Source of the DNA: Raillietiella orientalis
Taxonomy: Eukaryota
NCBI GenBank assembly: GCA_036172245.1
Contig: JAYWIR010000062.1
Span: forward strand, 248,001-312,000
Direction: 5' to 3'
DNA: 64,000 bases
A program made the position numbers and the translations under genes. Under the pieces are notes generated by a model that worked only from the letters and a program-made list of their open reading frames with translations, was not told the DNA's origin and did no database searches. This document shows, piece after piece, positions 22,801-64,000 of this stretch. Positions within the stretch are counted from its first letter, which is position 1. Every line of letters starts with the position of its first letter.

Positions 22801-25800
22801 GGAGCCGCGCCCGGAGAACCTGGAGCACGGGGAGCGCAAGGCGGTAGGGCGGGCCTCACGAGCTCGGGGCGCGCAAGACAGCGAGCAAACCGGTTGGGGA
22901 GGGGGGCGACCCCTCTGACGCGAGGTTGCAGCCGTTCCCCTCCACCCAGATGGTTCCGGCACGGAAGGAGGGGGGGGAAGGAGGAGGCGTTCCCGGTGCA
23001 CCGCTGATGGTGGCGGAAGACAACACTGGCGACCCCACGTTCACGTCCGGAGGGACGATCTGGCACTCGCTCTCGCTCGGAACGGGAGAGGGCAGAGGAG
23101 TTGCGCGCGCATTTTTGCCCGTCGCGCTGCAGGCGCTTCGGGTGACCCGGGATAGGGGGGGTCGCAAGGCCTGCCGGGCAGCAGCTCGAAGAACGCAGCC
23201 GCCGCCGCTGCTAGCCCGACATCGACCGTCATCCGACGACGGAGGAGGCCAGCGAGGAGGAGGGGTTGGGGTGGGGGTGGCTGTTCGACTGGCGAGGGAT
23301 GCCAAGCGGCAGCGCTTGCAAGCTGCTGCCGCCTGCCGCAGCAGCGTGCAAGTGGAGGGCGGAGTCGCGGCCGAGGCGCCCGGGCGTGGAGGGCTCGGAG
23401 AGCCGACGCTTCGGACGCGGGGCGGGGGTGGCAGCGAAGGGCACAGCTGGTGACGAAGGGAGCGCAGGAAGCCGCGCGCCGAACCGGACTGGTCGCGGAA
23501 GAGCGTCCAGGGTTGTGAAGTTCCCCCCTCTGCCGGGAGGAGGGGGGAGGACCAGGGCTTTCGGGGCAGCGAGTTCGGAGCTGGCCCAAAAGAGGGACTC
23601 CCGACCGGTGTGCTGGGCGAATCACGCGGGGGAATCGAGCGCGCCAGGCTGGATGTCCTCCAGGAGAGGACCTCCCGGGAAGGCGGTCCGGAGGCCGTTC
23701 GGGAGGCGGCGCCAGGCTTCGTTGGGATCGGAAGGGAAGCGGGGGGAGGGAGCGCGGAGACGGGCAGCGCGTATCGATTCCCCGAGAAGTCCCGCTCTCT
23801 CCCGGAGTCCCCGCCGCCTCTCGCTTCCTGGAGGATACGGGAAAGCGAACGTGTGCCGGTTCCGAGCCGGGATCTTCCAGTCGGACGCGAAGAAGGGAAG
23901 CATCGAGGCACTCCCGGAGCCAGACGGTGGCGACTTCTGCCTTTGCACTCTCGCAGAGGCCCACGAAGGCACCGACGCTTGGGGAGGAGGAGGAAGGTCC
24001 GTGGAGGGCTGCTTCTCCCCTCCCCCTTTTCTTCACACCCGTCGCGGTGAGTGAGCCGGGACCCCGGGAAAGAAGTGCCTCAAGGTCGGGCAGCGAGGGG
24101 CGCTCCAGGAGAAGGCGCTTGCACTGCCTGGGTCTGCGAGGCGAACGGAAGGAACGGCAGGGGAGGTCAGGGCGGCAGCCCGCTTATTTCTTTCGCCTTT
24201 TACTAAAGAAATCCGTGTGCGGGGGCGTCTAAAAGAGCATTCATGTAATTTTTGTTGTCCCCTGATATGGCGCAGAGCGGAGCCCTTGCTTCACGAGGGA
24301 TCCGGGAAGAAGAAGGCGCGAGGGAGCTCGCCCTCGGGAGTCGGCGGAGAGAAACGAGACCTTCGGGGTGGGGTTGGGGCTCCCGAGGGCAGCAACCTCA
24401 AAGAGGCGCCTTCCTCCTCCCTCCAGCAGCCTCATCGCCTGCCCCCACGCCGCCCTCTGGATCACGGGAAAAGGTTAGGGGGAAATCTCCGGACTGAAGA
24501 GGTCGCTTGTGTCCTTCCACCGCGTGGCTCGCGCGCGCGGGGTTCTTCCCTGCCTCCGCCTCCTTCCGGTTGCGGGCTGGTGAACTCGGGCCCAGCTGCC
24601 CCCGCCCTGCTCATACTCTTCCCGTCGTTCTTGGACTTCCCCCCTTTCCCAAGGGAGGGCTCCACGAGGTGTGCCGATGTCACCGGACATGCAGAGGATG
24701 AGGAGACAGCCGCGAAAGAGGGAAGAGAGGAGGAGGTGGGAGGAGGAGTCCCTCTGCGATCCCCGAAGGAGGAGGAAACAGCGTTCCTCGGCCCCCGCGA
24801 ACGAGGTCTCCGGGACCCATTGGTTCGGGGACAGCGGGATGTCGGGCTCCTGTACTGGCGGGAACCTCCTGGGTAGGAACTGCGGTGCTCCTCACGTGGG
24901 AATAAAAAGTACTTCCTAGAGTTTCTCGATGCTGATTGTCTCGCTGCAACACCCCGGGGTCGATCCCGGAGCCCTTCTGCCCCGAGGGGCCAGCAGTAGC
25001 TCCAGACGAGCCGGTGGTCGCCCTTTTCCGCTCCCGACACCGCGTCTACCGCCTCCGTTGCCGATTCATTCCCCTTCCCTTGCGTTCCCGACCCGTCAAG
25101 GAGGGTAGGATGCGCGCACCAGCCGCAGCTTCTGGATGCACCAGGCTCCAGAGCTGGACCGTCCCTCAAGACGCGCGGCCCCGTGGCGCCTCGGGCTCTC
25201 AAAGAGAAGGTCTACGGGACCGCGTGCCCAGGGGCTGCTCCCCGACGTCTTTCCGTCGCCACCCCAGGACGTCGCCTCTCCGCGGTGATGTGCACGGAGG
25301 GCGCACAGGAGCCTCCCGAACGCCGCTACCCAGCTGGCGTCCCCCTTGCCGAGGACTCTTTCAGCTGCGATCGCTGGAAAGGGGATAAGGCAGCAGCGTC
25401 ATATCGTTCGCGGCTGCCTTGGGGCAGCTTTTGCAGGATCACTGGTCCCGTCCAGCACCCCGCGCTCCTTTTCGGGAGGAGCCGTCCGGCATCCGGATGG
25501 CTCGCTCGCTCTCGAGCGCGACATCAGTCAGAGGAGATCCCCGGATGGTCTGCGCTCGAGGCAGGGCCCTGCGAAACAATCGCGGCAGCAGGCAGCCGGG
25601 ATCCAGGAGGAAGTGAGGAAGGGAGTGTATCTGCAGCGGCAGATACGTCTGCCGACGTCGCAGCCGCCTTCCCGCCTGTCCTTTCGTTCGCTCGCGAGTC
25701 CAAACAACAGGAGGAGGGGATGGCAGCGGGACACCAGGAACGTTTGCAAACAAGGCCAAGGAATAGCAAATCTTGCCGCCTCGAGAGGGGGGGGAGGGGT

Positions 25801-40300: not shown

Positions 40301-41836
40301 CGCGCGCTCCGGCCACCGCCCGCCTCTCTCGCTTTTCCGCGATCCTCCCTTCTCGCGGGGAGCGAAGGATTCCCTTCCGTCGGCTGCTGCTTTCCCTCGT
40401 CAGAGCGGCCCTCCTGCCTCCGCGGATCGATATCCTTAACGTCGCCTCCGGACCAACTTCCTTTTCTCCCCTCCCCTCCCCTCCCCCCCCCCCCCCCATC
40501 AGGCGGTTTCCTCCCACGCGCGCGCGAAAAGACGGTCCGGCTGCTTTCCCCGTCCGCACGCGCTGCCGCCGCCGCCGTCGTCGCCGCCTCGCGCTCGCCC
40601 GCGCGCGACTTCGGCCGGGAGCCTCCGCGAGCTCTCTTCCCCGAATCGGGGAAGCGAAGGAGCGATGGGCGGAGGGTCCCGGCGAGCGTGGCCGGGCGCT
40701 CGTCGCGACGAGCTGCGCCACTCGCGGGAGGGCGCGTCCGGCGGGAGGAGCCCGCGAGCACGAGGCAGCGGCGGGAAAACCGCAGCTGGGGAGGGGGGGA
40801 GGGCGAGGGCCTCGGGAAACACGTGGAGTCTGGCAGGAAAACGAGGAAGGAAGGGATCCCAAGTGGGATGGGGACGCTCGGCTCCCGGTTCAACCAGGAA
40901 GATCGATGCTTGTCTGTCACTCCTCGCTCGGGGGGACCCGGCGGGATTCCGGGGTGCTAACGAGAAGGGGCGAAACGCACGCACGCACCGCGGAATACCG
41001 GTAGGTCCGCTTCGCCAATCAAACGTTGGTCGCGCGCGCGCGTCCCCTCCCCCCCCCCCCCCGCAAAAGCAAAAACGCAAAGATAGCTAAAAATAAAAAC
41101 GAAGTGGACGGAAGGGGGGGGGGGAGACGCATCCATTGTTGCCCGCGATTCGGAACTTTCGAGACGCTTCGAGAACTTCCGCTGCCGAATCGACGGCCGG
41201 GTATTTTTAGAGGAATGGGGAGGTGGGGGGGGGGGGAAGAGTCCTGCTGAAAGCGGGAAGCTCTACGGAAGGCGGGCGCGCCGCTGCCCGAGTTCCCGCC
41301 GTGCCTTTCGGTGGTGCGTCGAGGGATGCCTCCCGGCGCGCGCGCGCGTCCCCGAGGACTCTCGGCTGCTCGGATGCCCCGAACCGCAGTCTCCGAAGGT
41401 GGAAGCTCATCCCAGGTTGTTGTTGTTGTTGTTTCAGTCTCCCTCTCTCCCTTCCCCCCCCCCCCCCTTTTCTCCTTCTCCCCCCTCCGGCGCAGTCCTC
41501 GGCGATTATGAGGACCGTGCTCTCCGGCTGTTTGATCCGAGCTCATCCCCATCCGGGGTGTGCGGGCACCGATTGTTCTTGCAGAACAATAAACAATAAC
41601 TGCCTTTTATGACGCGCGTGCAGCTCGCCAGAAGGACGACGAGAAGAGGAGCAGTAAAAAGATTAGTGATAAACAGTAATTTTTTTTTCCTTTTTTCTTT
41701 TTTTGAATTGCAGCTCGGCTGCCATGAACTCGGGAAATGAAATTATCGAATATTAAAACGGGCTAATTACGCCGAAGTCTCGTGTGCATGGGTGGGGAGG
41801 GAGAGGACTGCTCCTCAGCATCGCCTTCTGGAGTTG

Positions 41837-41995
41837 CCGGGGGCACGGCCACGTTGCCCTCTCCGGGGGCACGGCCACGTTGCCCTCGCCGGGGGCACGG
41901 CCACGTTGCCCTCTCCGGGGGCACGGCCACGTTGCCCTCGCCGGGGGCACGGCCACGTTGCCCTCTCAGGGGGCACGGCCACGTTGCCCTCGCCG
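41837..41995. repeat. Minisatellite: 6 x 26 bp CCGGGGGCACGGCCACGTTGCCCTC(T/G)
   Basis: Read directly. Units start at 41837, 41863, 41889, 41915, 41941 and 41967. The last base alternates T,G,T,G,T,G. Unit 6 has one C>A change. Confidence 0.97.
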
Positions 41996-50100: not shown

Positions 50101-53100
50101 CAGCCAGCTGCTTCTCTGTCCGGAGGCAGCGCTCCCGTTTCCCGATAAACCAATGACGGGAAGCGGGTGGATGGTGCGGAGGAAATCCCGAGGGCAAGGG
50201 CAGGAGAAACGGACGCGCGGGGCCCGATGGCGGTAAAGCGCGAGGACGACCTCTTCCAAGATGCCCTTAGGGGGAGCACCAGCATCCCGCCGACGACCTC
50301 GGCGGGACGCTCGCAGGAAGGCCGAGCTCCTTCGCCGGGCACGAGCGGACGGAGGGCGAGGCGCGCGCTCCACTCTCCGGCGTCCCGGGGAGCGCGCGCG
50401 CCATTCCGAAGGAACGCTCGCTGACGTCCCGCTCCCCAAGCCGTGGGTGGCGCACTCCAAGAAAGGATCCCCACCGCACCACGCTTCCCCGGGAATGTAT
50501 CCCTGGCGACGCTTCCGAGGCAGCGCGGGGCAGATTTGCCGCCGCCAGTCGAGACGGATTCGTGGATGGGGCCCTTCCCGTTCACCGAAGGGCAACAGTG
50601 CACCGAGCTCGGACGACGGGGCGGGGGCTGCGATGCCTGCCGCACAGCCGGGAATCACCGCCGCGGTTCAAGGAAAGACCAAGGAACGAACGGGGAGCTC
50701 CAGCTTCCCCTGCGCCCCGCTTCATCCTCTGGCTGACTCGCAGGCAAGAAACACCTCGGAAGGAGGTCCTCCCGGAAGAGATTCTAAGCTCGGAAGACAT
50801 GAGCGACGTCTGGAAAGGAAACCCCGCAAAGCAGGGAGCCCACGCCCCTCGACTTTGTTTCCCTTCCCAAGGCCCTTCCCCCCCGAGGCGACGAAGAGCT
50901 GCGAAGGCTAGTTCTCTTCGCACGCCATCTCTAGCTCCTCTCCTGCTCCACTCTCAGCGAGGGGAACTTTTCCCATCTCGGTGCGGGTCCTTCCTCATCC
51001 ACCAAATCCTTCCTCGGTCGCTCATCCTCACCGAGCCACCAGCCTTCCTTCCTCGGAAAAGGGAAAAAAAAAAAAAGAAGAGAAGTGGAACGAGAAAGAA
51101 CGTGGCGCGAACTCCTCTGCAGCGCATCTTCAAACAACACCGCCGCGGGATCGACTCGGCAGCCATCGAAGCTGCGCGGAGACGAACCAACCAAATAGCT
51201 TGCTTGGTCCTTTTCTTCATTCGAGGACCACGCGACCCCTGAAGCCAGGAAAGGGGATCGCATCGAGATGCAGGTTCGCGATGCAATTGGAGCGGAAGAA
51301 ATTGCCGCGTGCCTTTCGGTGCAGCTGCCCTGCAAGATGCAAAGAGGAAGATGGGGAAAAGAAGAAGAAGAAGAAAAAAGGAAAGCACGAATACATCTCG
51401 TGCGAGAAATCTGGAAGAAACACACAAATCAAAGTGCATGCTCCACAACTGTCCTTGCGACGACGTTACCATGACGACGAAACGGTCGGAATCCGGCCAT
51501 CTCGTAATATCGGAGAAGGATTTCGAGATCTGGTTTAGACCCTGATTCTTCTACCTCTCCAGTTTATAGTACGGAATGTACTATAAAGTACAGTACATTG
51601 ATAATCGTCTCGAGCCTGTAAGGGCACGGCACGACCCCTCCAAAGGATTGGTCGCCAGCAGCCATCGGGAAGAGACACATGGGCGGCGATGTGGCTGGCT
51701 CACCAAAAACGCCGTGGTACCTGCTGCTCCCTCTGTGTGGAATCCCGACTTCCTGAGGGGTGATGCTCACTTGGACCTGTGCCTTCCCTAGAGAGAACCT
51801 GTAAAGTTCCCGTCCCTTTGCCCAGATTAGCAGGATTTAAAACTCGAAATGGGAAACTCGATCGCTGGCTTTGCCGAAAATCATGTCGCGGAGGAGCAGG
51901 AACATTCTGCTCCTGATACCCGCTGCGAGTTCTTTGCGCGGAAGAATCCAGGAGCATCCTGCTTACACGAGGGAAAGCATGGGATCGAGGCTGCGAAAGT
52001 TCTCCTCTAACGAAATCCTCCCGTTTAGCAAGCTCATTTTCCACAGGGATTGAAAATCGTTAAAAAAAACTACAATAAACCATAATAGAGGTCGCTTTCA
52101 AACGAAAGAAATCCTCGAAGAATGACCGAAAGCAGAAGATCCTCCAGAAAAATGATGGCCTTAATGAATCACTGACCACTATTTGCCTTTCCAAAACTCT
52201 CCAGAGAACAACTGTAAGGGTCATTTCTGACGAACAAGGTAAGTCCAAACAAGCAATCAGTTGGTCATTTGTGCAATGGAATGTGCATATGCTGCTTCAT
52301 TCCCAAATCTCAGATTATTATCTTTAGCGTCCGTATCGTTAAGATTAATTTTGACTTGGCACTTCCGCCATCATGATTCCCGGGTGCTCCAGATCCCGCT
52401 CGTTCGCTATCAATCAAGCACAATTCAGGTAGAATCCATTGAATTAAACCAATAACTGAATAAAATCAGTGCTCAACTTATCATTCCAATAAATTCGGTT
52501 CAAAAGGCATTCGTATCCCTGAAGGATTCGCAAACTCATTAGAATTTGCTCTACAGGACAGAACAAAAAGCTTAATCAGCTTCCATGCTGCAAAGTAAAA
52601 CGAAACGAAACTGAAGCTGAAGGCTTCGCGTAGAGGTTCTTTATAAGAACAGAAAGATAACCAATCGTCCTCAATTACTCAGCATTAGAAACGAACAAAG
52701 GAATTTTGAGAGTACAGCAGCTGTGGAATTGTGGAAACCAAAATCATAAGGAACATTCGAGTCTCAGCATCTTATGGCGCTGTGGTAGACTGACAAGAAA
52801 TTGGTCGTGCGAGCATATCTCACCATAGAATTCGTGGGTATTGGGTTGTGGGGGTTACTGGCGCTGCAGACTGGAGGGGGGGGGGGGGGGAGGGGTGCGA
52901 CCGGGCAAAAATACCAATGGATTTTGATTCCGAATTTTGATTGTTTTTGCTGATGTTTATCATTGACATGGTGTGCAGATATTTTTAAAAGAAATTTCAC
53001 GTCACGTATTCCTACTTTCCGATGATCATCTCTTTAGACGTATTCCTATTCAAAAGTATTTTCACATTTTTTACTCACATTGGAGAACATATAATAGATA

Positions 53101-53949
53101 GTCTGCTTTGGGGTACAAAAACACCTTTTACCTGCAAATTTTCAAGTTTGACAATGGTTCAGGAAGCTGTCGGTTCATTCATCTCATTCGATTACAAGGA
53201 ATGCTTTATGCAAACAGTAAGTTTGTATAAAGCATGTTGCAGTTTCTCACCATAAAAACAGTACGGATGCAAAAGGATTTGCATTATCCCTAAGGAAATG
53301 ATATCCTCAATTGCCCAATTGAAGCTATTGTGATTGGGTAACGAAGTCAATTTAATTTAGCATGCTAATTTATCTCATTGGATATTATTTCCTTTCCGGG
53401 AGAAGGTATCGAAGGAAATCACCACAAATTTCCAAGTTTCATATTTCATTTTAATATCGTCAAATTGGTTTCGTCCTCTTTTGCCATCCATGTCTTTTAA
53501 GTGTTTTGTTTTTTTCTCTTTTACCATTCGGAAGAACAACTTGATTTAATCACCACACAGCTACTCATGGTGAGAACTTCGGAGCTTTCTTGGCTTTGAA
53601 TTCTTCGTGGATTCTATTTTCTGCATGTTAGCCGATTCGAGAATTTCGAGAAAGTGACATTGGTTGCCTTCACTGAGTGGTTGAGAATTTTTTCGAAATC
53701 TATGCTAAGTGAACTTATCCTTTGACTTTTGTATGAAGTAACTTTTCAAAATCCGGAATGCACCTTACCTTTTTCCATTTGTTTTATTATGACTGTTTCC
53801 TCCCATCAAATATTATGCACTGTTTGATCACAGGTAGCACATTGGCTATTAATTATGTGTTCCACCAAACCATAAAATAACGTTCAATTACGCGGTCATC
53901 TGGAAGGAGTCCTTCGATGTTGGCATCACTTGCTGTTGCCATTTCAAAC

Positions 53950-54283
53950 TGGTCCTGGTGGTCGACAAAGTCTCCATGTTTTTGTTTGCTCCCACGGTTT
54001 TAGGGCGATGATCGCTCGCGCCTCGTTAATGTGTATTAAAAACTGACACGAAAGCTTCCACGCAAGTTTTTCGAGCAGCACGAAATGTTCTTGGCATTGC
54101 TTGCTTTAGGCCACGGAGTCACCCAGTCGCTCTTATCCAAAGATGGTTTCTTCTTTGTCATTAAAACGATCCCCCCTCCCCTCCCCTCTGCTCTCCCAGG
54201 ATGTTCCGTGAAGAGTTCCCTCACCGAGCTTTGAGCTTTGAGCTTTGAACCTGGTTCTGTATCGATGCTTTGAAAATGATGGC

Positions 54284-54314
<31 letters not shown>

Positions 54315-54780
54315 TGCTTGCGGGTGCCTGAATCTGCTTTCATGCTTCCATAAGAATTGCCTCCTGCTGACATTTCTTAATCCTGTACCGTGGTTGATTG
54401 CACTGATTGCTTTATTAAGAGTGAAACTTTTGTGTTTGGAATGCAGCTCGAAAGCTTCTGTGCATATTAATGTATTCTGTAAGCAAGGTATCGGCCATTT
54501 GTGCACTAAAGCGAGGTGTACGTCAAGTTACCAACCGCAATGTCTCCCCCAAGGACATTGTCTTTTGAAGAAGGATTTCAAACGGGGAAGTACGGTGTGC
54601 TTTTAAGGGTGTTCGTAATATCCGAAAGTTAATGTCGACTTCGTCTGATTTGTGATCCTGGATGCTATCCTGAATTGTTGTTGTTGATAAAGGTTTGAAG
54701 ATTATTCATCCATCCGTGCTTGGTAACCGTAGTGTTTTGTTTGCATAAAGAGTTCGTGTTTTTTCATCGGAGAAAATGTG
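53950..54780. promoter_or_regulatory. Probable (possibly bidirectional) promoter and non-coding leader exon for PITPNC1/ORC5
   Basis: CpG-retaining island upstream of the CpG-poor PITPNC1-ORC5 body. Candidate + strand donor TTG|GTAACC at 54722/54723. Minus-strand exon-like segments begin just to its left. Confidence 0.4.
54285..54311. repeat. (TG)n microsatellite
   Basis: Read directly. Similar tracts: (GA)n ~1019-1041, (GCC)n ~38391-38413, (CA)n ~44605-44627, and (TG)n ~60164-60182 within ORC5 intron 9. Confidence 0.9.
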
Positions 54781-55180
54781 CGTATATCCCTTAACCCGTT
54801 TGTTGGCGTTTTTCGCATTCCCAATTAGTACATGACAGACTTATAAGTTGCAAGATAAAAAAAAAATGCTTTCTCCACTTTTAGATTTCTCCACTTACTT
54901 ATCTTTCAATAAGTAAACATGCATTCTGTAATTAGTAAAGTAGCTTTGATAATCCAATGCTGTGGAAACATGGCAAAGCAGTGAAAATTTAAATGTCAGG
55001 GTAGTCAAAGTGCCATTATAAAGACATATGAAGAATATGTACAATTTTGCACAGTATTGTTAGATGGTATTCTGTTGTCTGAAGTACTGAGTGTGTATAC
55101 TTTTCACCAATTTATAAACTGAATATTTGGTTACTTGTGATAACTCTTCAAGTGGCCTCAGTCAGTCTCAAGCTTTGATA

Positions 55181-55933
55181 ATGGTTATCAAAGAGTATCG
55201 CATTTGCTTACCAATGTCAATTGAAGAATATAGAATAGGCCAGTTATATATGATTGCAAAGCATAGTTTCGAGCAGTCAGATAAAGGTGAAGGTGTGGAA
55301 GTTGTTGTGAATGAACCTTGCAATCATGCTGAATTTGGCAGTGGACAGTATACTGAGAAACGAATTCATTTATCCAGTAAGTTACCAAAGTGGATTCAAA
55401 ATATCTTGCCTCGAATTTTTTACATAACTGAAAAAGCATGGAATTATTATCCCTACACAGAAACCGTGTATAGTTGTTCTTTTATTCCAAGATGCATAGT
55501 GACTATTAAGACCAAATTCAAAAGTGATAATGGCCAGACCTCAAACGTCTTTTCCCTAAGCAGTGATCAGTTAGGATGTGAAGTTGATTTTGTTGATATT
55601 GTGACTGACCCCTACCCTGAAAAACATTACAGAGCTTCGGAAGATTTAAAAATCTTTCATTCCGAAAAAACTTCACGTGGACCGTTATCAGAAAATTGGC
55701 TGACATATCACCAACCAATTATGTGTTCATATAAGCTTGTTGATGTTAAATTTGAAATTTGGGGGTTACAGGATAAAGTAGAGAACTTTGTTCATTCAGC
55801 TATAAGGGATGTGTTGCTTGTGGCTCATCGTCAAGCATTTGCATGGATTGATGAATGGTATGAAATGACCATAGATGATGTTAGATTGTATGAAAAGAAT
55901 ATGCACGAAATGACAAATCAGAAAGTGCTGTGA
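55181..55933 (+). CDS. PITPNC1: Cytoplasmic phosphatidylinositol transfer protein 1 (rdgB-beta, class IIB PITP), 250 aa, intronless CDS
   Basis: Uninterrupted ORF MVIKEYRICLPMSIEEYRIGQLYMIAKHS...GQYTEKRIHL...YITEKAWNYYPYT...HRQAFAWIDEWY. The PITP inositol-binding T/K (YTEK) and E/N (EKAWN) residues are intact. The first ATG is at 55181; the ORF track starts at an upstream non-ATG codon. Confidence 0.96.
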   Translation: MVIKEYRICLPMSIEEYRIGQLYMIAKHSFEQSDKGEGVEVVVNEPCNHAEFGSGQYTEKRIHLSSKLPKWIQNILPRIFYITEKAWNYYPYTETVYSCSFIPRCIVTIKTKFKSDNGQTSNVFSLSSDQLGCEVDFVDIVTDPYPEKHYRASEDLKIFHSEKTSRGPLSENWLTYHQPIMCSYKLVDVKFEIWGLQDKVENFVHSAIRDVLLVAHRQAFAWIDEWYEMTIDDVRLYEKNMHEMTNQKVL

Positions 55934-56185
55934 TTGATAGGGGAATTTTCTAGATGAATGGAAAATATTTTATACAATGTTCATCTGTTACAAATGTTGT
56001 TATTGTTGCATTTGCGATGTATGTTATTTTACTTTACTCTCATTTTGTAGAGTTTTTTTGGTATCAGTTAGTTGCATGTGTGATGAAATATACATCATTA
56101 TTTTAAAATTGGACTAGTATGTTTTATTAAGAAATTAATTTGAGCATACAATACATTGTTTTTGTTTTTTGTTTTTGCTTATCAA

Positions 56186-59100
56186 ATGAAAGATAAAGTA
56201 CTGAAAAAACTGAAAAAGAAAATTAAACATAGAGATGAAGAACTAAATATCATTTTACAATTGATGGGAGAGGTGAGATGTTTTAAGTGGCTGTCTGTGT
56301 CTTTCTTGTTATGTTTTTGAAAACGGTATTTTTTCTGTTTCATCACCTGCAGTCATGTTTGCTCATATCTAGCATATGAAATGACATTTGAAAGTGCAGT
56401 TATAGTTGTGAGAATTCAAAGAATGTAAGACAGAATAATGGCAACATATTTTCAGCCAGATTCAAAATCTCCCCCTTGTATATTTGTCTTTGGTCCACCA
56501 TCAACAGGAAAAACATTTGTTATTCAGCGCATTTTTAAGAGAGTTAAATATCCTTGCATCTTTATCAATTGCTTTCAACATTATCATTCCAGACTGTTGT
56601 ATCAGGAAATCCTATACAAATGTGCAGGTAGGGTGAAATTGTTTTCATGGAAACCCTTGTTTTTATTTTACGCCTCACGTACTTTGCTTTTGTATTTTGT
56701 TTATGTATTTAGTTTCATCTAAGACTATTTTCATCAACCACACTAGAAAAAATTTGTATGCGCTTTTCCAACAAAAAATAATGCATCAGTTGTTGAGCAT
56801 TTGATTGCTTTGCCCATATCAAATGCATAGTTGAGGATTTAAAAATCTTTCATTTGTTTAACACGGATTATGTACTGAGCAGATGTATTCAAAAGTTGTG
56901 GTCATCTCAGGTCTTATTGGAGATCATGAATATGTGGAAAAGTGTTCAAATGCAAGTGATTTCCTTTTCAAATTAACTCACCTTCTCAAAGCCAGCAAAT
57001 TGTGTGAACAAACAGTCTTTGTGGTAAGGCAGATGTTACTAGAATGTTTTTTCATTTTGACTAGGTTTTAGATAATGCAGAAAAATTGAGGTGTCTTGAT
57101 GGAAATATGATTTCTGTATTTGTAAAGTTGCAAGAATGGACAAATCTTAATGTTTCAGTTATATTAATAAGCAAGATTGTTTGGGAGAAATTCCGAAGTG
57201 GGATCCGAGTTGATGATCCTATAACAGTGAAGTTTTCACAGTATGCTAAAGGTAAGTATGTATTCATTGATGGGAATCACAACTAGTGAATTTGGTACTA
57301 GATCAAGTGCTGACTATTTTGAATTTGGAAAAGCAAGATGGCTACCAGAAAGAGTTCTTTTTGAATTTCTTGCGAATAATTTTGAATGTTTTCTTTGTAA
57401 TATCCAGAGATATTAAGGAACTGAAGCACTTGGTGAGCAGAAATTCCTATGTTTGTTTTTGTGTGGTGATTGACTCTGTGCTTTTCTGTGATCAGTAGCA
57501 ACTTTTTTAAAATGAAAATAAGAATTTTGCTTCAAATGTGCTTTATCAGAAATGGAAGTGCTATGTCATTAGTTGTTGAATCAGGTTAACCTTAGAATGT
57601 TCTTGGTGACCAAAATAAGTAATGGTTATATGAATTTCTGCAGTCCTGTCAGTTCCGTTTATTAATTAAAGTGAGTTTGAATTTTGCCCTGAGACATTTA
57701 AGCAACTGAAACATCTGAATAGCATCTTGTATTGCTGTATGGAAAGTAGTGAAAAAGAAAATATTTGTAATTTTCCATGGTTTATGATGCCAGTGAATTA
57801 ATATTTCTGTATGCATGAACTTTTTAGAAATCACTTTGTGGTGTTACATATGCCTTTCTTTCTTTCAAAGGTACGATTAAGTTTCTCCAAATATTGTGAG
57901 CCTGTGCAGTCAGGAGAAATACATCCAGATGATATCGGTAAATTGTGGAAGAGAATGGAACCGTATTTTAAACAGACTTTGCATGAAGTATATCCAGGAC
58001 AAGTAAACAGGTACTAGATAATCGTAACGTTTTCAATGGAACTCTTGTTTTAAAGTCACAAGTGGAATTTGATCAATGTCAGACAACCAACACTAGAAGA
58101 GGCTTGGCATTGCTGTGTTGAGTTGCCCTTTTATACTAAATTTTTGCTTATTGCCTCATATTTGGCCTCATATAATTCAGCATCGTTGGATCAACGCCTG
58201 TACTTAAAGGTATCCTACAAAAGCGGAATATTTGGAAGCATTTTCGAAATAGCTACTGAAGGAAACTTATTCAATTTAAATTTAGTATTTATTTTTAAAG
58301 ATGTAATTGAATATGTATGTATTGCATGTCTTTTGCATACTACTTATTCAGGCCAGCATGTGAACCATAGGTTTGTTTACAAGAGTTTCTGCTAAGAATA
58401 CTTCAACTTCAAACCCTCGATAATTGTGAATCTAATTGCGTTGTTAATTGCTTAAATTTAATTTAATCAGTTGTCATCCTTCAAGTCAGGATTAAGTAAT
58501 TATGAAGTTACGCATTAAATCAAAAGGTGAGTGAGCTTATTAAATAAGGTGATAATAAAGACGATGCTCTGTGAAGCAAAGAATTTCATAACCACATGAA
58601 CTTAGTGGAGCATAAGTGTAGAATACTGAACTTAAAAAAAGATTGCTTTTAATGGTAGATTTAAATGCAGAGCCATTCCAAAATAATCTTATGGTAATGA
58701 CAAGAAGATATTTTTATTTCGAGCGTCAGTTGACACACAAAAAGCCATTTTCACATTCATTCCTTGATTTAGCGCCAGTAAAAAAAAAAAAAAATAGCTC
58801 ATGTATTTACAACTGGATAGGATGGAAACTGGCACCATCCAAGTTTCTGTTCAATATGTTGAAGATCCGTTTCTACGGAAGTGTTTCTCGAGGAGAGTAT
58901 TCTCGATCAGGCTAAGTGATTTTATGTAATCACAAGACAGAAAGTTTTCAAATATGTAATGAGTAAACAAATTGAGTGCACTGATGACTACTAGTCAGTT
59001 TGACACAAAAAGTGGTATGTGTTGCCATGTCGATGTCAAGCACCAGCTCCCCCGAGTTGTAGTCTCTTCTGGAATCTGCAGTTTTCTTCATCTTTTGGCA

Positions 59101-60411
59101 TGTTGCTTTCCTTTTTATCTGTTTTTAAAGCCTCCAAGTTCTTGCTGCATTCTTGATATTCAGCTTCTAAGGAATGATATCAAGGTTCTTCTTGCCTTGG
59201 TGTCACGTTCCTTTTCTATCTGCTTCCGGCAGGATGCAGGATAACCGTGCCATTGCCTTTCCGAGTGTCATGTTCCCAAAATGTATTCGGTTTTTCTGAT
59301 GTGGCTGTGACAAATGTCTGAGTATATCAGCGCTTTCTGCTCATAGTTCAATCCTATTGGTATTCACTTGGCTGCAGTTTTTTGAGTAACCAAGTCAACT
59401 GACAGCTGCTCTGAAAATGCCAATAATACCCCAAACTTTTGAAGGTATGTCGACTCATCAGTGAATGCTTTTCATCTCCCCCTTTCCTCGTTCACTTGAT
59501 GCACTCTAGATTTCTGGATCTAGTCTTACAAGTTTTTGAGTTAATTACTTCCACCTTTGGGAGAATTACTTTCTGAGTGCATTTGCGTCCGCATTCTCAG
59601 TGCAGAAGTGCAGCAGCAGCCCCCTGAGATGGGAGCTTGTTGCTATGGCCATTTTGGCCATTCAAGTAGCAGGTGATGGCTGCAACCATGTAGATAGGAA
59701 TCGTGGCTCTTTTCACTATTGACCAGGTCCTCCATTTCATCTGCTTGATTGCCCTGTTAATTTAAATGAAATGATTGTTTTGTTCAGTCAGGTTTTTTTT
59801 TTTATCCGTATTATTGAGCAAACCCATCATGTGCACTATTGTGTTGATATCATTTGGATAATAATAGATTAGCTGAATGATTTGAGCAAGAATTCTATGT
59901 AATTGAATGACCAGTTCCCTTTATTTTCCTTGTTTATTGATTGCCTTTTGGTTTCAGAAATGTGAACCCCAGTCCAAACGAAGAACAAAACGCAAAAAGG
60001 TTAAGTTATTTTCCAGTCATAATGTTTGTTCATTTTCCTTTGTAGACGTGCACTCAATTCAAAGGCCCCAGAATGTTTCCATTGCACCGTCTCCTCGCCA
60101 TATTCCATTCCATCGTCGATGAGAAAGTTCCTTCTTATGTCCAAATCCTTCCTCAAGTATATTTTGTGTGTGTGTGTGTGTGTTTTCCTAAATCTCTTGA
60201 ACATTTTTCCAGATAAGCTTACTGGTAAAATTATCCATGCTTTACCGGTCATGCAACAAGGACAGCTTGAAAATGCCGAGGTTTCGTTGCCTTGTCACCC
60301 TCCCGTTCCTGACTTCTGTTGCCAGGTATTTCAGGTGGGAATTCCAACAGCTGGACTGAATCTTTCAGAACCGTAAATTTCCCCGTCGATGGTTACCTAC
60401 TGGATTCTTAG
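56186..60411 (+). CDS. ORC5: Origin recognition complex subunit 5, 11 exons: 56186-56272, 56456-56627, 56911-57023, 57065-57251, 57302-57432, 57871-58010, 58056-58209, 59958-59999, 60046-60156, 60213-60325, 60369-60411
   Basis: All introns are GT-AG and phase-consistent. The joined CDS is 1293 nt (430 aa + TAG). Motifs: Walker A GPPSTGKT, VLDNAEKLR, IVWEKF, RDIKELKHL, KYCEPV, VELPFYTKFLLIASYLASYN, GPRMFPLHRLLAIF, and C-terminal ARTVNFPVDGYLLDS*. These are colinear with animal ORC5. Confidence 0.95.
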
Positions 60412-60999
60412 GAATTCTCAGTTGCCGGAAATTGGAACTCATCTTTATCAATATTCTCTCATCATTTTTGCAAATACATTTTATATTATTTTTTCAGCAT
60501 TTCTGAATCTGTCACGGAGCTGAATTTAATGTGCTATGCATGCATTTGGTGTATTAGAAACAATGCATTGTATGGGTTTAGAGGATTGCTGGAGTTTGCT
60601 AAGACGTGCAACCCGAATTTTTTCTACTGTTTGGTGGAACATCGCACGTGAATTTAGTTATCAATGCGAAGATGTGTGCCAACTTCAGATGTTTTCGGCC
60701 AATTCGCGTGCCCTCACGTGCCCACGTCCCGGGGTCGTGCCGCAGTGCAGATTCGAAAATGAGTTCCCACCAGGAGCCAAGAAAACCGTTAATGGTGGCT
60801 CTACAGCTGGCAGGCCCCAGGCGTGGGAGCACAAGTCGACCAACTTGAGACTTCCCCGATCCCACCGGGGTGGGGGAGTTGCATTTCTTTTTGCATTCAC
60901 TCTGCAGACTCTTTCGTTCCACTCCGAACAAAGTTCAGTATTATTTTTCCCATTGAAGTTTACTTCGGGAGCTCACTGCACTAAGGTTCCGCACTTGGG

Positions 61000-63900
61000 T
61001 GCACAAGGTTTTTTTTTTTTTGGGGGGGGGGGGGGACATTGTCCCCGATCCTTTTCAGGATGTATCGGTATGTCCATGGCCTGGCTCTCTGACACCACAG
61101 TTCCGTGTGCCGATCTCTCTTCGGGTAATTCCTTCCAGGATGACTTCCGTGGGAGATACGGCCGTTCCACCGGTCCTCATCTTCCACCGTCTGATTAGGA
61201 TGGCCGTAATAAGCAGGGCAATGGTCGTCCTAAGCATGGGATCGTACTAAGGGACGTTACCGCTTCCTTGAAACATCTTGGCCGGGGCTTCCGTCGGCGG
61301 ATGGTTCTGCAGCCCTCTGACCCTTTGCAGAGTCTGCCAGTCTTGATGCACTGAGGGGCAGATCACGAAGAAGTCTCGAACCCGCAGCCCTCGTCTCCTC
61401 TTGCGCCTGTGAAGTATTTCATCCTGGACCCGCGCGGGGTTCCGCCACTACAGAACATCGGGAGGTTTTCCTGGGCGTCCGGCGGTAGGTCACTCTTCCG
61501 GAGCACCAACGTCGCGATCGCCAACAGGTTGACTGTGTCGGCCCCGTAGCGATGAACAGCTTCTTGGAGGGCACTGATGTCTTTGTCTTGTTCCCCTATG
61601 ATGCGGCGTAAAGTTCGTTTGTTCACCCTGGGACCACGCGTAGCTGCTGTGGTTCTTCCACACTTCACGGGTCCTGCGGGTGCACCTCCCCGTCATCTTG
61701 TCGATACATTGAAGTATCCTGGAGTGGTGCAGGAAACCACTCCTTCTCGATTGCATTCTCTGTAGGGTGGCTCGAGCCTCTGCTACAAGGAACATCCGAA
61801 GAGATCTCGGCACGGGAGGGAAGTGATGGTGAAGAAGGATTCTTTGGCAACTTGAGCGACATCGTTGGAAGTCCCACTGAAGAGGAAGACAACATCGCAG
61901 AAGTACAACGAGTACCCATGCCAAACGAAACTACAGAATCCGGTGCAAATCTCCTCTTCCTAAGAATACTCACTATATATCCAAAAGAATGAGGAAGGAA
62001 AAGGAAAAAGTGCTGGTTCAAAATAGCCTAATCCCGACCGATCAGGATGATGATTAAAACGGAAGGAAACCTCGATGAAGAACCTCATCATCCCTCGGAA
62101 GCAGAACGTAAGTTGGCTGAGGAGGAAGAGTCGGTAAATGAAGAAAACGTTGAAGGACAAAAGGTAGAAACTGAAATACTCAGAATGGCGCGGGCACGAA
62201 GGACTAAGGAAAGTTAGTCCTTCGGGGACGGCGGCGACCACTCCACGAAACTACCAATAGAAAGAGAGCATTTCCAAGCCATCTACCAATCGGAGAACAC
62301 ACGCGACTTTGAAGTGGCGCGTACGGAAATCGCATATCTAAAGTAAAAACCATCCTAAAAATAAAAGAAACGAAACCGTTGAAGAGGGAGCTGCTGATAA
62401 AGTTGAATGTTGCATAATTTTCGAGTTTCCTTTTCATTTAGAAACAGAAAAACCAACATGAACCGAAGAAGAGCGATAAGAACGACATTCGGACACAAAA
62501 ACAGCGTGCGCTCCCTCGACACCCGAAAAATAGAGGACTCCTTTCAGCCCTACTTTTCCAGGAGCTGGAAATCTCCAGAGCAGCGGATGGAAACCTGATG
62601 GGAAACACCCCACTCGGAAGGAGACAAGGGACCCCTCCCCTCCTTGAATATGACTCCCTTCTCCACCAAAGAGGTAGCAGAAAAAACTTCAGCTCAGGAA
62701 CGGATGGAATCACACACACGCAGGATGGAGAAAAGTGACTGCGATGTGATTACCCCCATACTTGGCATTCTATCGAAAACGATGAGAATAATTCCCCTGC
62801 TGGAAGTGCGCGAAAACCATCCTGCTCCCGAAACCAGGAAGAACGCTTCAGGAATTGGCAGATTGGGGACGGATCTCCATTGGTAACAGCATATACAGAT
62901 TGTACGCGAAACGCCTTTCCTCAAGAATTAAAGAGAAATGGACAATGAAATGATAAGCCCTCAGGAGAAAGGTTCCATGCCATTTTATGGAGTCCTGGAT
63001 CAAAATTCCATCCTGCAAACGCGTTTGGATCACGCGAGAAGATGTAGCAAAGATCTACGACCAGCCTTCCTTGATCTTACAAACGCATTTGGAAATATCT
63101 CTCACGAGTTTGTGTTAGGAGCTCTTAGAGGAACAGGATTGGGTGAGCAGTTCGTTACCCTCGTCAAAGACCTGCATGAGGACAGCACGACGTTCATCCA
63201 AGCGGAGTCCGCGGTCGCAGAACTGCTACAATTAGGAGGAGAGGGGTAAAAAAAGGATGCCCTCTGAGCTCCTTGCTCTTCGTGTGGTCCTTAGAGCCAG
63301 CAATTAGGACAATGAAAGAATCCTACGGGGAAGGCAGCGCACTGGCCTACGCAGATGATTTGGTGATCCCTGCTGACCCCAGGAAGAACTGAAAAAACGA
63401 ATGGTCCACTGTTGGAGTCGCTGTTGGGAAGAATTGGACTCACCGTCAACCCCACAAAGTGCGCAACACTGTTCTACCTTGGAAGAACACCAAAAGGCCT
63501 GAAACACATGGAGGTCCAACTCAAAAATGGTTGCATTCCGAACATGGAACTTTCGGAAGCCTACAAGTTCCTTGGAACGCCATCCGGAATGGAGATCTTC
63601 AACAAGCAACCTACAAAAGAAGATATCTTTCTAAAAACAGAAAAAGTTCTATCATCCGGAATGTCACCGGGGCAGAAGTCGGATGCACTTCAAGTATTCT
63701 TCTTCCCTAACCTCATCTACTCCGAGAGGGTAGGGATGCATCCGAAATCGTATCGGGAATATCCAGATATAAGGCTGCTACTCAAGGAAATACTGCGCCT
63801 CCCTCCGACTTCCGCGAACGAATATATATCTACGGTGACAAGAAAAAAAGTTGCCTTAGGCTCTTGAGCCTATCCGATGAGGCTGACACCTTCATCGTGG

Positions 63901-64000
63901 CTTGTTGTTTCAAGCTTTGAACATCGGCACACAAAATTGTAAGAAGTCTCGCCGGAGAATCCTTGCGTGAGGTGGTAGCAAAGAAAACACTTCAACCACC
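61000..64000 (+). mobile_element. Degenerate Utopia-like (R2-group, RLE-type) non-LTR retrotransposon, running off the right edge
   Basis: Frameshifted RT motifs in order: NRRRAIR (~62460), GTDGIT (~62700), WKCAKTILLPK...DWGRISIGNSIYRLYAKRL (~62800-62930), ISPQEKGSMPFYG...FLDLTNAFG (62950-63095), GVKKGCPLSSLLF (~63245), ALAYADDLVI (~63340), GLTVNPTKC, YKFLG, SPGQKSDALQVFFFP, LRLPPTSANEY. The 5' boundary is approximate; a CPWPGS zinc-finger-like remnant lies near 61070. Confidence 0.88.

What the first reader, a model, noticed from the sequence alone, without database searches (positions are those of the whole stretch)
54600..56272. Intronless PITPNC1 sits 252 bp ahead of ORC5: nested retrogene, shared leader exon or dicistronic/operon-like unit
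Seen: the PITPNC1 stop (55933) and ORC5 ATG (56186) are on the same strand with a 252-nt, very AT-rich gap. The gap has no AATAAA and no evident promoter. It does contain a strong acceptor (TTTACTTTACTCTCATTTTGTAG| at 56050), variant polyA hexamers (AATATA 56087, AATACA 56150) and a U/GU-rich tract (56156-56180). The same AATACA follows the ORC5 stop at 60473. The only promoter-like CpG-retaining stretch is upstream of both genes, with a donor at 54722/3 and candidate acceptors just before PITPNC1 (55152, 55161). Inference: one promoter probably drives both genes. Either (a) a shared non-coding exon splices to PITPNC1 or skips it to reach ORC5, (b) a dicistronic mRNA is made, or (c) an operon is resolved by polyadenylation plus trans-splicing. 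Any of these would couple a lipid-transfer protein to a replication-origin factor, a pairing I do not know to be described.
Basis: partly seen in the sequence, partly recalled or inferred. Interest (0 to 1): 0.75.

Follow-up and report, generated by a model that had tools for sequence, protein, structure and literature searches.

The report
Tight PITPNC1-ORC5 tandem gene pair
An intact, intron-free lipid-transfer gene sits 252 bases in front of a replication-origin gene in a small isolated two-gene island; they may share one promoter, but without RNA data this remains an unproven tight gene pair.

Summary
An intact, intronless 250-aa PITPNC1-type ORF (55181-55933) ends 252 nt before the ATG (56186) of a complete 11-exon, 425-aa ORC5 gene on the same strand. 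The spacer is 75% A+T and has no AATAAA or ATTAAA. All named motifs lie where stated.

New here:
- The two genes form a 5.8-kb CpG-depleted block (54815-60600).
- No CpG-retaining stretch lies between them. The only one is upstream, at 54000-54814.
- The rest of the window shows no other recognisable gene apart from one reverse-transcriptase fragment.

This fits one shared promoter, but only indirectly. No RNA run was listed, no genome is held, and relatives gave no synteny information, so none of the three proposed mechanisms could be tested.

Points against each mechanism:
- Simple dicistronic translation: the spacer holds 9 ATGs.
- Leader splicing just before the start codon: no AG occurs in the 41 nt before the ORC5 ATG.
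- The better acceptors (56050, 56067) leave 3 upstream ATGs.

"Retrogene" is inference. No poly(A) or target-site duplication remains, and the protein keeps 70 of 73 invariant family positions.

The scan has already flagged similar operon-like pairs elsewhere in this genome, but not this pair. Modest interest.

The parts
54000..54814 (+). CpG-retaining, promoter-like stretch upstream of both genes; contains the donor-like CTTG|GTAACC at 54722/54723
   Evidence: 35 CpG, o/e 0.88. CpG positions are listed. The donor scores 5.7 bits in a local matrix, within the leave-one-out range of the true ORC5 donors (3.3-8.5). Seven other GTs in 54000-54800 score 3.7-7.6, two of them higher.
54815..55180 (+). 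CpG-free segment just upstream of the PITP ATG (candidate 5' UTR or leader intron); TATAAA at 55017 and 55113; acceptor-like AGs ending at 55152 and 55161
   Evidence: 0 CpG against 9.7 expected. TATAAA positions. Acceptor scores are 8.7 (55152) and 3.4 (55161).
55181..55933 (+). Intronless PITPNC1-type (class IIB PITP, rdgB-beta-like) coding sequence, 250 aa plus TGA
   Evidence: IP_trans E=2.1e-108; 53-65% identity to the 120 listed relatives, whose source names are almost all PITPNC1; 70 of 73 invariant columns kept.
55934..56185 (+). 252-nt spacer: 75% A+T, 9 ATGs, 1 CpG, no AATAAA or ATTAAA
   Evidence: RNA fold z-score -2.04, with 6 of 200 shuffles folding at least as well.
56028..56067 (+). 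Two acceptor-like sites in the spacer (AG ending at 56050 and at 56067), 135 and 118 nt before the ORC5 ATG
   Evidence: sequence; 56050 scores 1.9 and 56067 scores 8.8 in a matrix made from ten ORC5 acceptors. Three ATGs (56076, 56083, 56119) lie between them and the ORC5 ATG.
56087..56180 (+). Variant poly(A)-like hexamers AATATA (56087) and AATACA (56150), followed by a T/GT-rich tract at 56156-56180
   Evidence: AATACA is also the only one of 13 hexamers tested that occurs within 360 nt after the ORC5 stop (60473; the next, AAGAAA, is at 60779).
56186..56272 (+). ORC5 exon 1 (start codon, 29 codons)
   Evidence: The N-terminus aligns with the conserved R-[DE]-x-[QE]-[IL]-x-x-L-x-x-L motif region of 8 ORC5 proteins.
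56456..56627 (+). ORC5 exon 2 (Walker A, GPPSTGKT)
   Evidence: (AAA_16, AAA_22).
56911..57023 (+). ORC5 exon 3
57065..57251 (+). ORC5 exon 4
   Evidence: 91 proteins with E<=0.001, the best at 50-55% identity..
57302..57432 (+). ORC5 exon 5 (lid domain, first part)
   Evidence: (ORC5_lid).
57871..58002 (+). ORC5 exon 6 (lid domain, second part). An alternative donor after 58010, paired with the acceptor ending at 58055, is equally in frame.
58063..58209 (+). ORC5 exon 7 (start of ORC5_C)
   Evidence: ORC5_C, E=7.4e-9.
59958..59999 (+). ORC5 exon 8 (14 basic codons), after a 1748-nt intron
60046..60156 (+). ORC5 exon 9
   Evidence: ORC5_C, E=6.1e-6.
60213..60325 (+). ORC5 exon 10
60369..60411 (+). 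ORC5 exon 11 with stop TAG at 60409-60411
60473..60478 (+). AATACA, 62 nt after the ORC5 stop (candidate poly(A) signal)

Best explanation
An intact, selectively maintained, intronless PITPNC1-type gene and a complete 11-exon ORC5 gene form one head-to-tail unit inside a 5.8-kb AT-rich, CpG-depleted island. I think both are most likely transcribed from the single CpG-retaining promoter region at about 54.0-54.8 kb. Two separate messengers would then be made by RNA processing. The PITP messenger would end at weak variant poly(A) signals in the spacer. The ORC5 messenger would get its 5' end by splicing onto an acceptor in the spacer (56050 or 56067). That splice could come in cis from a shared non-coding leader exon, the layout of the cholinergic VAChT/ChAT locus. 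Or it could come in trans from a spliced leader, as in an operon.

Shown: gene identities, intactness, spacing, the CpG pattern and the isolation of the pair. Inferred: shared transcription, the processing sites, and an origin of the PITP gene by retroposition.
For: (1) CpG o/e is 0.79 in 52000-53999 and 0.88 in 54000-54814. It then falls to 0 of 9.7 expected in 54815-55180. It is 0.51 in the PITP CDS, 1 of 3.5 expected in the spacer, 0.26 in the short ORC5 introns and 0.53 in the ORC5 CDS. It returns to 0.84 in 60600-62000.
(2) Across the spacer, ORC5 exon 1 and intron 1 (55934-56455) there are 2 CpG against 9.2 expected. By my own Poisson arithmetic P is about 0.005. So no CpG-retaining, promoter-like stretch marks the ORC5 5' end.
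(3) CpG depletion of gene bodies is read as a trace of past gene-body methylation in crustaceans (PMC11706791, passages of sections 9 and 14 seen).
(4) Spacer composition (T 0.47, A 0.28, G 0.17, C 0.08) is skewed the same way as the ORC5 introns (T 0.39, A 0.28, G 0.19, C 0.13).
(5) AATAAA occurs once on the sense strand of the block (inside ORC5 intron 7) against 8 antisense. Local expectations are 5.7 and 9.6.
(6) The pair is isolated. 0 of 116 ORFs of 170 aa or more in 1-50 kb have a Pfam domain at E<=1e-4. Of 109 ORFs of 55 aa or more in 50.5-64 kb, only the PITP ORF, five ORC5 pieces and one RVT_1 fragment hit. The closeness is therefore not general genome compaction.
(7) Acceptor-like sites exist before each ORF: 55152 scores 8.7 and 56067 scores 8.8.
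(8) Precedents exist. Two messengers with a common first exon are made at the cholinergic locus, and operons are expected where trans-splicing exists (PMC2776167, section 14 passages). Retrocopies inside host genes are expressed with the host's upstream exons (PMC4772013, section 6 passages).
(9) Unchecked lead: earlier notes of this scan list many tight same-strand pairs in this genome, one of them with RNA-shown leader splicing.
Against: - There is no RNA evidence of any kind.
- The CpG argument assumes that promoters in this genome retain CpG. In the spacer alone it rests on 1 observed against 3.5 expected, which is not significant.
- No AG occurs in the 41 nt before the ORC5 ATG. Splicing at 56050 or 56067 would leave a 118-135-nt leader with 3 upstream ATGs (56076, 56083, 56119).
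- The 56050 acceptor is undistinguished: 63 of 345 AGs score as high. The matrix, built from ten sites, is noisy; leave-one-out scores of the true sites run from -4.3 to 9.8.
- The spacer holds TATA-like and Inr-like words: TTTAAA at 56102, TCAGT at 56064, TCATT at 56095. 252 nt is room enough for a core promoter.
- The last 64 nt before the ATG carry no ATG, as an ordinary short leader would.
- A TATAAA at 55017 could be a separate PITP promoter inside the CpG-depleted part.
- No relative shows the pairing. 0 of 38 longer PITP-bearing proteins carry an ORC5 domain. 0 of 80 PITP-encoding environmental loci carry ORC5. The one long ORC5 (P0178, 686 aa) has no PITP domain. Most of those loci are short and look like cDNA, so this says little.
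Confidence: 0.45

Rival explanations
1. Two ordinary, independently transcribed neighbours. ORC5 has its own AT-rich, CpG-poor core promoter inside the 252-nt spacer (overlapping the PITP 3' UTR). PITP has its own promoter upstream.
For: The spacer holds TATA-like and Inr-like words. The final 64 nt before the ORC5 ATG are free of ATG. Variant poly(A) hexamers plus a T-rich tract could end PITP transcripts at about 56165-56175. No acceptor lies close to the ORC5 ATG. Same-strand neighbours a few hundred bases apart are common in arthropods (general knowledge, not tested here).
Against: No CpG-retaining stretch lies at the ORC5 5' end (2 against 9.2 expected), while the upstream stretch has o/e 0.88. 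The pair is isolated in a window with no other recognisable gene apart from one reverse-transcriptase fragment, so compaction does not explain the spacing. The promoter-like words are short and expected by chance in 75% A+T sequence.
Confidence: 0.4
2. A mature dicistronic messenger carries both ORFs. ORC5 is translated from it by reinitiation, leaky scanning or internal entry, as in Drosophila Adh-Adhr or stoned.
For: Same strand, no canonical poly(A) signal in the spacer. There is an arthropod precedent for directly translated dicistronic messengers (PMC2776167, section 14 passages). The spacer RNA folds slightly better than shuffles (z -2.04).
Against: The spacer holds 9 ATGs (shuffles 5.5 +/- 2.1), so scanning ribosomes would rarely reach 56186. 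The fold signal is weak: 6 of 200 shuffles fold at least as well.
Confidence: 0.07
3. A PITP-ORC5 fusion protein is made by splicing from a GT at 55925 (phase 0, just before the PITP stop) to ORC5 exon 2 (phase 0).
For: Both sites are in phase 0, so the frame would be kept (read).
Against: The GT at 55925 scores under 3 bits, below all ten ORC5 donors. ORC5 exon 1 encodes the conserved N-terminal motif and would be skipped. No fused PITP-ORC5 protein appears among 38 longer PITP hits or 91 ORC5 hits.
Confidence: 0.02

Closest known systems
Cholinergic gene locus (VAChT inside the first intron of ChAT, shared first exon)
   Same: An ORF lies on the same strand between a possible non-coding leader exon and the first coding exon of a multi-exon gene. 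Two messengers could arise by alternative splicing from one promoter (PMC2776167, Fig. 11 legend passage).
   Different: The shared exon here is hypothetical. The two products (lipid transfer, origin recognition) have no known common pathway. No conservation of the arrangement could be shown.
Spliced-leader-resolved operons (C. elegans SL2 type; Ciona, Oikopleura and chaetognath type)
   Same: Unrelated housekeeping genes lie head to tail on one strand with a short spacer lacking a canonical promoter mark. A U-rich tract follows a poly(A)-like hexamer.
   Different: The spacer is 252 nt, longer than the ~100 nt recalled as typical of C. elegans operons. No AG occurs within 41 nt of the downstream ATG. 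No leader sequence or RNA data are available. A 2021 paper states that operons have not been reported in copepods or amphipods although they trans-splice (PMC7986045, Background passage).
Retrocopies that piggyback on a host gene's promoter and upstream exons (e.g. mouse Taf9 in Ak6)
   Same: An intronless copy of a normally multi-exon gene lies next to, or inside, the 5' part of an intron-rich gene in the same orientation (PMC4772013, section 6 passages).
   Different: No poly(A) remnant, target-site duplication or parental copy could be shown. The gene may be the organism's only PITPNC1 orthologue.
Drosophila dicistronic units (Adh-Adhr, stoned) and the llz/CheB42a type
   Same: An arthropod same-strand pair with a spacer of a few hundred bases and no evident second promoter (PMC2776167, section 14 passages).
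   Different: The Drosophila pairs mostly hold related genes. Here the spacer is rich in ATGs and nothing shows a mature two-ORF messenger.

Membership tests
Class IIB phosphatidylinositol transfer protein (PITPNC1 / rdgB-beta) | Full-length PITP (IP_trans) domain | tested here: met
   PF02121, E=2.1e-108, residues 1-242 on profile positions 1-245 of 246.
Class IIB phosphatidylinositol transfer protein (PITPNC1 / rdgB-beta) | Closer to PITPNC1 than to class I (PITP alpha/beta) or class IIA (PITPNM) | tested here: met
   The 120 listed hits are 53-65% identical at 355-466 bits, and almost all with a source name are called PITPNC1. PITP alpha and beta structures score 191-203 bits. Most PITPNM hits are 36-47% identical.
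Class IIB phosphatidylinositol transfer protein (PITPNC1 / rdgB-beta) | Family-invariant residues kept (protein under constraint) | tested here: met
   70 of 73 columns invariant in 29 orthologues are kept; the changes are M>L, V>I and G>A. 101 of 108 columns at 90% or more are kept. The YTEK and EKAWN stretches match PITP alpha in the printed alignment. Their role in inositol-head binding is recalled.
Class IIB phosphatidylinositol transfer protein (PITPNC1 / rdgB-beta) | C-terminal extension of the long isoform | tested here: not met
   The ORF stops 8 residues after the domain, like the short forms of 253-255 aa. This is an isoform trait, not a family-defining one.
ORC5 | AAA+ N-domain with Walker A, ORC5 lid and ORC5 C-terminal domain, in order | tested here: met
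   AAA_16 and AAA_22 at 56429-56719; ORC5_lid at 57271-57495 and 57802-58014; ORC5_C at 58054-58392 and 60046-60213. The single-exon scores are partly below Pfam's whole-protein cut-offs because each query is one exon.
ORC5 | Full-length collinear similarity to known ORC5 proteins | tested here: met
   The 425-aa model has 33-39% identity over 401-424 aligned positions with 8 ORC5 proteins. tblastn hits fall on the model's exons.
Processed retrogene | No introns in a gene whose relatives have them, in an intron-rich genome | tested here: inconclusive
   The PITP ORF is uninterrupted while the neighbouring ORC5 has 10 introns. That PITPNC1 orthologues elsewhere have introns is recalled, not checked.
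Processed retrogene | Poly(A) remnant and target-site duplication | tested here: not met
   No A-run follows the ORF. The 14 short direct-repeat families in 54700-56300 are all imperfect or wrongly placed. Old retrogenes lose these marks.
Processed retrogene | Intron-bearing parental copy elsewhere in the genome | not testable with these tools
   No genome is held for this window.
Spliced-leader-resolved operon | Same strand, short spacer, no separate promoter mark | tested here: inconclusive
   252 nt on the same strand, with CpG 2 against 9.2 expected over 55934-56455. Promoter absence cannot be proven from sequence.
Spliced-leader-resolved operon | Trans-splice acceptor just upstream of the downstream start codon | tested here: inconclusive
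   No AG in 56145-56185. Candidate acceptors end at 56050, 56067 and 56071, 114-135 nt upstream.
Spliced-leader-resolved operon | Leader sequence on the downstream messenger; polycistronic precursor | not testable with these tools
   No RNA run was listed, so read laying could not be used.
Dicistronic messenger translated directly | Spacer that lets ribosomes reach the second ORF (few or no AUGs, or an internal entry element) | tested here: not met
   9 ATGs in 252 nt against 5.5 +/- 2.1 in 2000 shuffles. The fold z-score is only -2.04.

The most novel reading that the evidence does not exclude
The pair is a true operon of a crustacean-like arthropod. One precursor RNA from the promoter at about 54.0-54.8 kb is resolved by spliced-leader trans-splicing. 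The unit was born when a PITPNC1 retrocopy landed in the 5' leader of ORC5. This would show both that operons exist in a group where they have not been reported and that retroposition can create them.
Probability: 0.15. Interest if true: 0.65.

Novelty: new member of a known kind. Interest (0 to 1): 0.33.

Why it matters
If the two genes share a transcript, this locus would be one more case of polycistronic transcription in an arthropod lineage where a 2021 paper says operons have not been reported (PMC7986045, Background passage). It would also be a concrete example of an intronless gene gaining expression by sitting in another gene's leader.

It would tie the level of a lipid-transfer protein to that of a replication-licensing factor, a pairing with no known functional logic. 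By itself, without RNA data, it is an ordinary-looking tight pair. Its value lies mainly in adding to the set of such pairs that this scan has flagged in the same genome. It also adds the CpG-depletion-block argument, which can be applied to all of them.

Tried and rejected
RNA and genome access:
- RNA runs: none was listed for window:54600-60600. The tool advised asking with one gene, which the cap no longer allowed, so read laying was never used.
- Own genome: none is held.

Searches for the pairing in relatives:
- A word-based search with ORC5 exon 4 against longer proteins found nothing.
- A full HMMER search with the same exon found 91 ORC5 relatives but no close one, the best being 50-55% identical. 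Of the ten looked up, the named ones are cricket, brachiopod, stick insect and a fungus; six are unnamed. This gives no help on taxon.
- Fused PITP-ORC5 predictions as a proxy for synteny: 0 of 38 longer PITP hits. P0178 (686 aa) has an N-terminal extension of the right length but no PITP domain.
- Environmental loci: 0 of 80 carry ORC5.
- Earlier findings searched by sequence and by relatives: nothing.

Sequence-level tests:
- The local splice-site matrix, built from ten sites, is too noisy to rank candidates.
- Target-site duplication search: only chance-level repeats. A 20-nt pair at 54840 and 56178 is 80% identical, but the A-run and T-run beside it lie on the wrong sides for a retro-insertion in either orientation.
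- Spacer RNA fold: z -2.04, not compelling.
- Rfam: nothing in or near the pair.
- Self-comparison: the island and its flanks are not repeated in the window.

Readings rejected:
- Trans-splicing at the AG ending at 56192, behind the T-rich tract. It would remove the ATG at 56186, and the next in-frame ATG (codon 27) would delete the conserved N-terminal motif.
- Placement of the organism by the PITP tree: unresolved. The branch is long (0.75 against a median of 0.24) and no well-supported clade holds it.

Full report
OBSERVATION

The region was read directly and the coordinates were checked by script.
- A 250-codon ORF runs from ATG 55181 to TGA 55931-55933 on the + strand.
- The next ATG that opens a recognisable gene is at 56186. 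The spacer 55934-56185 is 252 nt and 75% A+T, with no AATAAA or ATTAAA.
These are the acceptor-like tract ending at 56050, AATATA at 56087, AATACA at 56150, the T/GT-rich tract at 56156-56180, and the donor-like CTTG|GTAACC at 54722/54723. AGs end at 55152 and 55161, and AATACA lies at 60473.
- The ORC5 stop itself is TAG 60409-60411, so 60473 is the position of the hexamer, 62 nt downstream.

THE TWO GENES

PITP gene:
- The upstream ORF is a full-length PITP domain (Pfam IP_trans, E=2.1e-108).
- Among 1234 relatives with E<=0.001, the 120 listed are 53-65% identical, and almost all that carry a source name are called PITPNC1.
- Solved PITP alpha and beta structures score only 191-203 bits. 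Most PITPNM proteins are 36-47% identical. So it is a class IIB PITP.
- It keeps 70 of 73 columns that are invariant in 29 orthologues from eleven animal groups, and 101 of 108 columns conserved at 90% or more.
- Its median identity to those orthologues is 62%, against 67% among them.
- In a tree of 30 rows its end branch is 0.75 against a median of 0.24, and no well-supported clade holds it.
- It is therefore an intact, constrained, somewhat fast-evolving PITPNC1-type protein, not a decaying copy.
- It stops 8 residues after the domain, so it lacks the C-terminal extension of the long isoforms.

ORC5 gene:
- ORFs that carry its exons hit AAA_16/AAA_22, ORC5_lid (twice) and ORC5_C (twice).
- I built an 11-exon model by hand from three-frame translations. 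All introns are GT-AG, the frame is continuous, and it gives 425 aa.
- Eight database ORC5 proteins, found with exon 4, align with the model at 33-39% identity over 401-424 positions. Their tblastn hits fall on the model's exons.
- The N-terminus from ATG 56186 aligns with the conserved motif region and is as long as the shortest orthologues. The in-frame stop at 56141-56143 excludes an upstream coding exon in the same ORF.
- Six of the ten introns are 41-60 nt and three are 183-438 nt. One is 1748 nt.

SURROUNDINGS
- The two genes lie in an AT-rich island (about 33% G+C) inside otherwise 53-70% G+C DNA.
- Of 109 ORFs of 55 aa or more in 50.5-64 kb, only the PITP ORF, five ORC5 pieces and one reverse-transcriptase fragment (63180-63389) have Pfam hits.
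- 0 of 116 ORFs of 170 aa or more in 1-50 kb have any at E<=1e-4.
- The window has no internal repeats apart from one 26-nt tandem array.
- So the closeness of the two genes is not the result of local gene crowding.

NEW INDIRECT EVIDENCE ON TRANSCRIPTION

CpG observed/expected, by segment:
- 52000-53999: 0.79
- 54000-54814: 0.88
- 54815-55180: 0 of 9.7 expected
- PITP coding sequence: 0.51
- spacer: 1 of 3.5 expected
- short ORC5 introns: 0.26
- ORC5 coding sequence: 0.53
- 60412-60600: 0.38
- 60600-62000: 0.84

Over the spacer plus ORC5 exon 1 and intron 1 there are 2 CpG against 9.2 expected. The two genes and the spacer thus form one CpG-depleted block with sharp edges. The only CpG-retaining stretch lies upstream of both.

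In crustaceans, CpG depletion of gene bodies is read as the trace of past gene-body methylation (PMC11706791, passages of sections 9 and 14). Two further papers on arthropod and crayfish methylomes (PMC7343188, PMC6172769) were seen only as search listings with abstract starts.

Two further observations point the same way:
- The spacer has the same strand skew as the ORC5 introns (T>A, G>C).
- AATAAA occurs once on the sense strand of the block against eight times on the antisense strand. Local expectations are 5.7 and 9.6.

All this fits one transcribed domain that starts near 54.8 kb. None of it proves it. The spacer alone is too short for the CpG count to be significant, and I do not know that promoters in this genome always retain CpG.

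THE THREE PROPOSED MECHANISMS
- Dicistronic translation is weakened. The spacer holds 9 ATGs, against 5.5 +/- 2.1 in 2000 shuffles. Its RNA fold is only mildly better than shuffles (z -2.04; 6 of 200 fold as well).
- An operon with an acceptor right at the start codon does not fit. This is the layout the earlier notes describe for several pairs in this genome. Here there is no AG in the 41 nt before the ORC5 ATG.
- Acceptor-like sites do exist at 56050, 56067 and 56071. Using them, in cis or in trans, leaves a 114-135-nt leader with three short upstream ORFs starting at 56076, 56083 and 56119.
- With a matrix built from the ten ORC5 acceptors, 56067 scores 8.8 and 55152 scores 8.7. The matrix is noisy: the true sites score -4.3 to 9.8 when left out.
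- The donor at 54723 scores 5.7, within the range of true donors, but so do several neighbours.
- An independent ORC5 promoter cannot be excluded. The spacer holds TATA-like and initiator-like words, and its last 64 nt lack ATG.

RETROGENE QUESTION
- The PITP ORF has no intron while its neighbour has ten. This favours an RNA-mediated origin.
- But no poly(A) remnant or convincing target-site duplication remains.
- No genome is held in which to look for a parental copy.
- That PITPNC1 orthologues elsewhere carry introns is recalled, not checked.
- It may be the organism's only PITPNC1 gene.

RELATIVES AND LITERATURE
- No relative gave synteny information. 0 of 38 longer PITP-bearing proteins carry an ORC5 domain. 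Of nine ORC5 hits picked for their length or match position, none has a PITP domain. 0 of 80 PITP-encoding environmental loci carry ORC5, and the 29 with a contiguous near-full-length match are short and look like cDNA.
- One search for papers holding both gene names gave 6. By their titles and abstract starts all are expression or signature studies; I read none of them.
- A 2021 methods paper states that copepods and amphipods trans-splice but that operons have not been reported in them (PMC7986045, Background passage).
- A review describes the known eukaryotic solutions: leader-resolved operons, a shared first exon at the cholinergic locus, and Drosophila dicistronic messengers (PMC2776167, section 14 passages).
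- Retrocopies expressed with a host gene's upstream exons are documented in mammals (PMC4772013, section 6 passages).

EARLIER NOTES OF THIS SCAN
These are unchecked leads. They call this genome crustacean-like. They list many tight same-strand pairs in it, one with RNA-shown leader splicing. I did not test these. They raise my prior for shared transcription somewhat. This particular pair was not noted before.

VERDICT
- Shared promoter with two processed messengers: about 0.45.
- Independent ORC5 promoter: about 0.40.
- Dicistronic translation: about 0.07.
- Fusion protein: about 0.02.

This is a new member of known kinds of arrangement, of modest interest until RNA data exist.

Noticed in passing
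window 24163-24274 (+): A U5 spliceosomal snRNA match (Rfam RF00020, 47.8 bits against a gathering score of 40, full model length) lies inside the GC-rich, otherwise featureless flank.
   Followed up: no
window 1-51500 and 60600-64000: About 50 kb of 53-70% G+C DNA has CpG o/e near 1. 0 of 116 long ORFs have a Pfam domain, and there are no internal repeats apart from one tandem array. It switches sharply to the 33% G+C gene island at about 51.5-52 kb and back at about 60.6 kb. It is unique, GC-rich and apparently non-coding; its nature is unexplained.
   Followed up: partly
L005:188-1897 (environmental contig): A Ribosomal_L1-family ORF (188-913, E=9.7e-49) is followed after an 83-nt AT-rich spacer by a PITPNC1-type ORF (ATG 1001, 62% identical to the window's). 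An AG sits directly before its ATG. This looks like a dicistronic transcript or an operon junction in some other organism, or it is a chimeric assembly.
   Followed up: partly
window 58210-59957: ORC5 intron 7 is 1748 nt, while six of the other nine are 41-60 nt (the remaining three 183-438 nt). It holds an A15 run at 58780-58794 and a GC-richer part (0.39-0.43), which suggests an old insertion of a mobile element.
   Followed up: no
window 41836-41995: Tandem array of a 26-nt GC-rich unit, 6.2 copies, 94% matches.
   Followed up: no
window 63180-63389 (+): Reverse-transcriptase fragment (RVT_1, E=1.1e-5). It is the only mobile-element protein signal found in the window.
   Followed up: no
P0178 (cricket ORC5, 686 aa): An annotated Gryllus ORC5 carries an N-terminal extension of about 253 residues with no Pfam domain. 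A 444-aa form of the same cluster lacks it. This is possibly a gene-model artefact or a fused upstream ORF.
   Followed up: partly
window 58002/58063 versus 58010/58056: Two equally in-frame donor/acceptor pairs are available for ORC5 intron 6. They differ by five codons (VNSHK), so this is either possible alternative splicing or an unresolved model choice.
   Followed up: no
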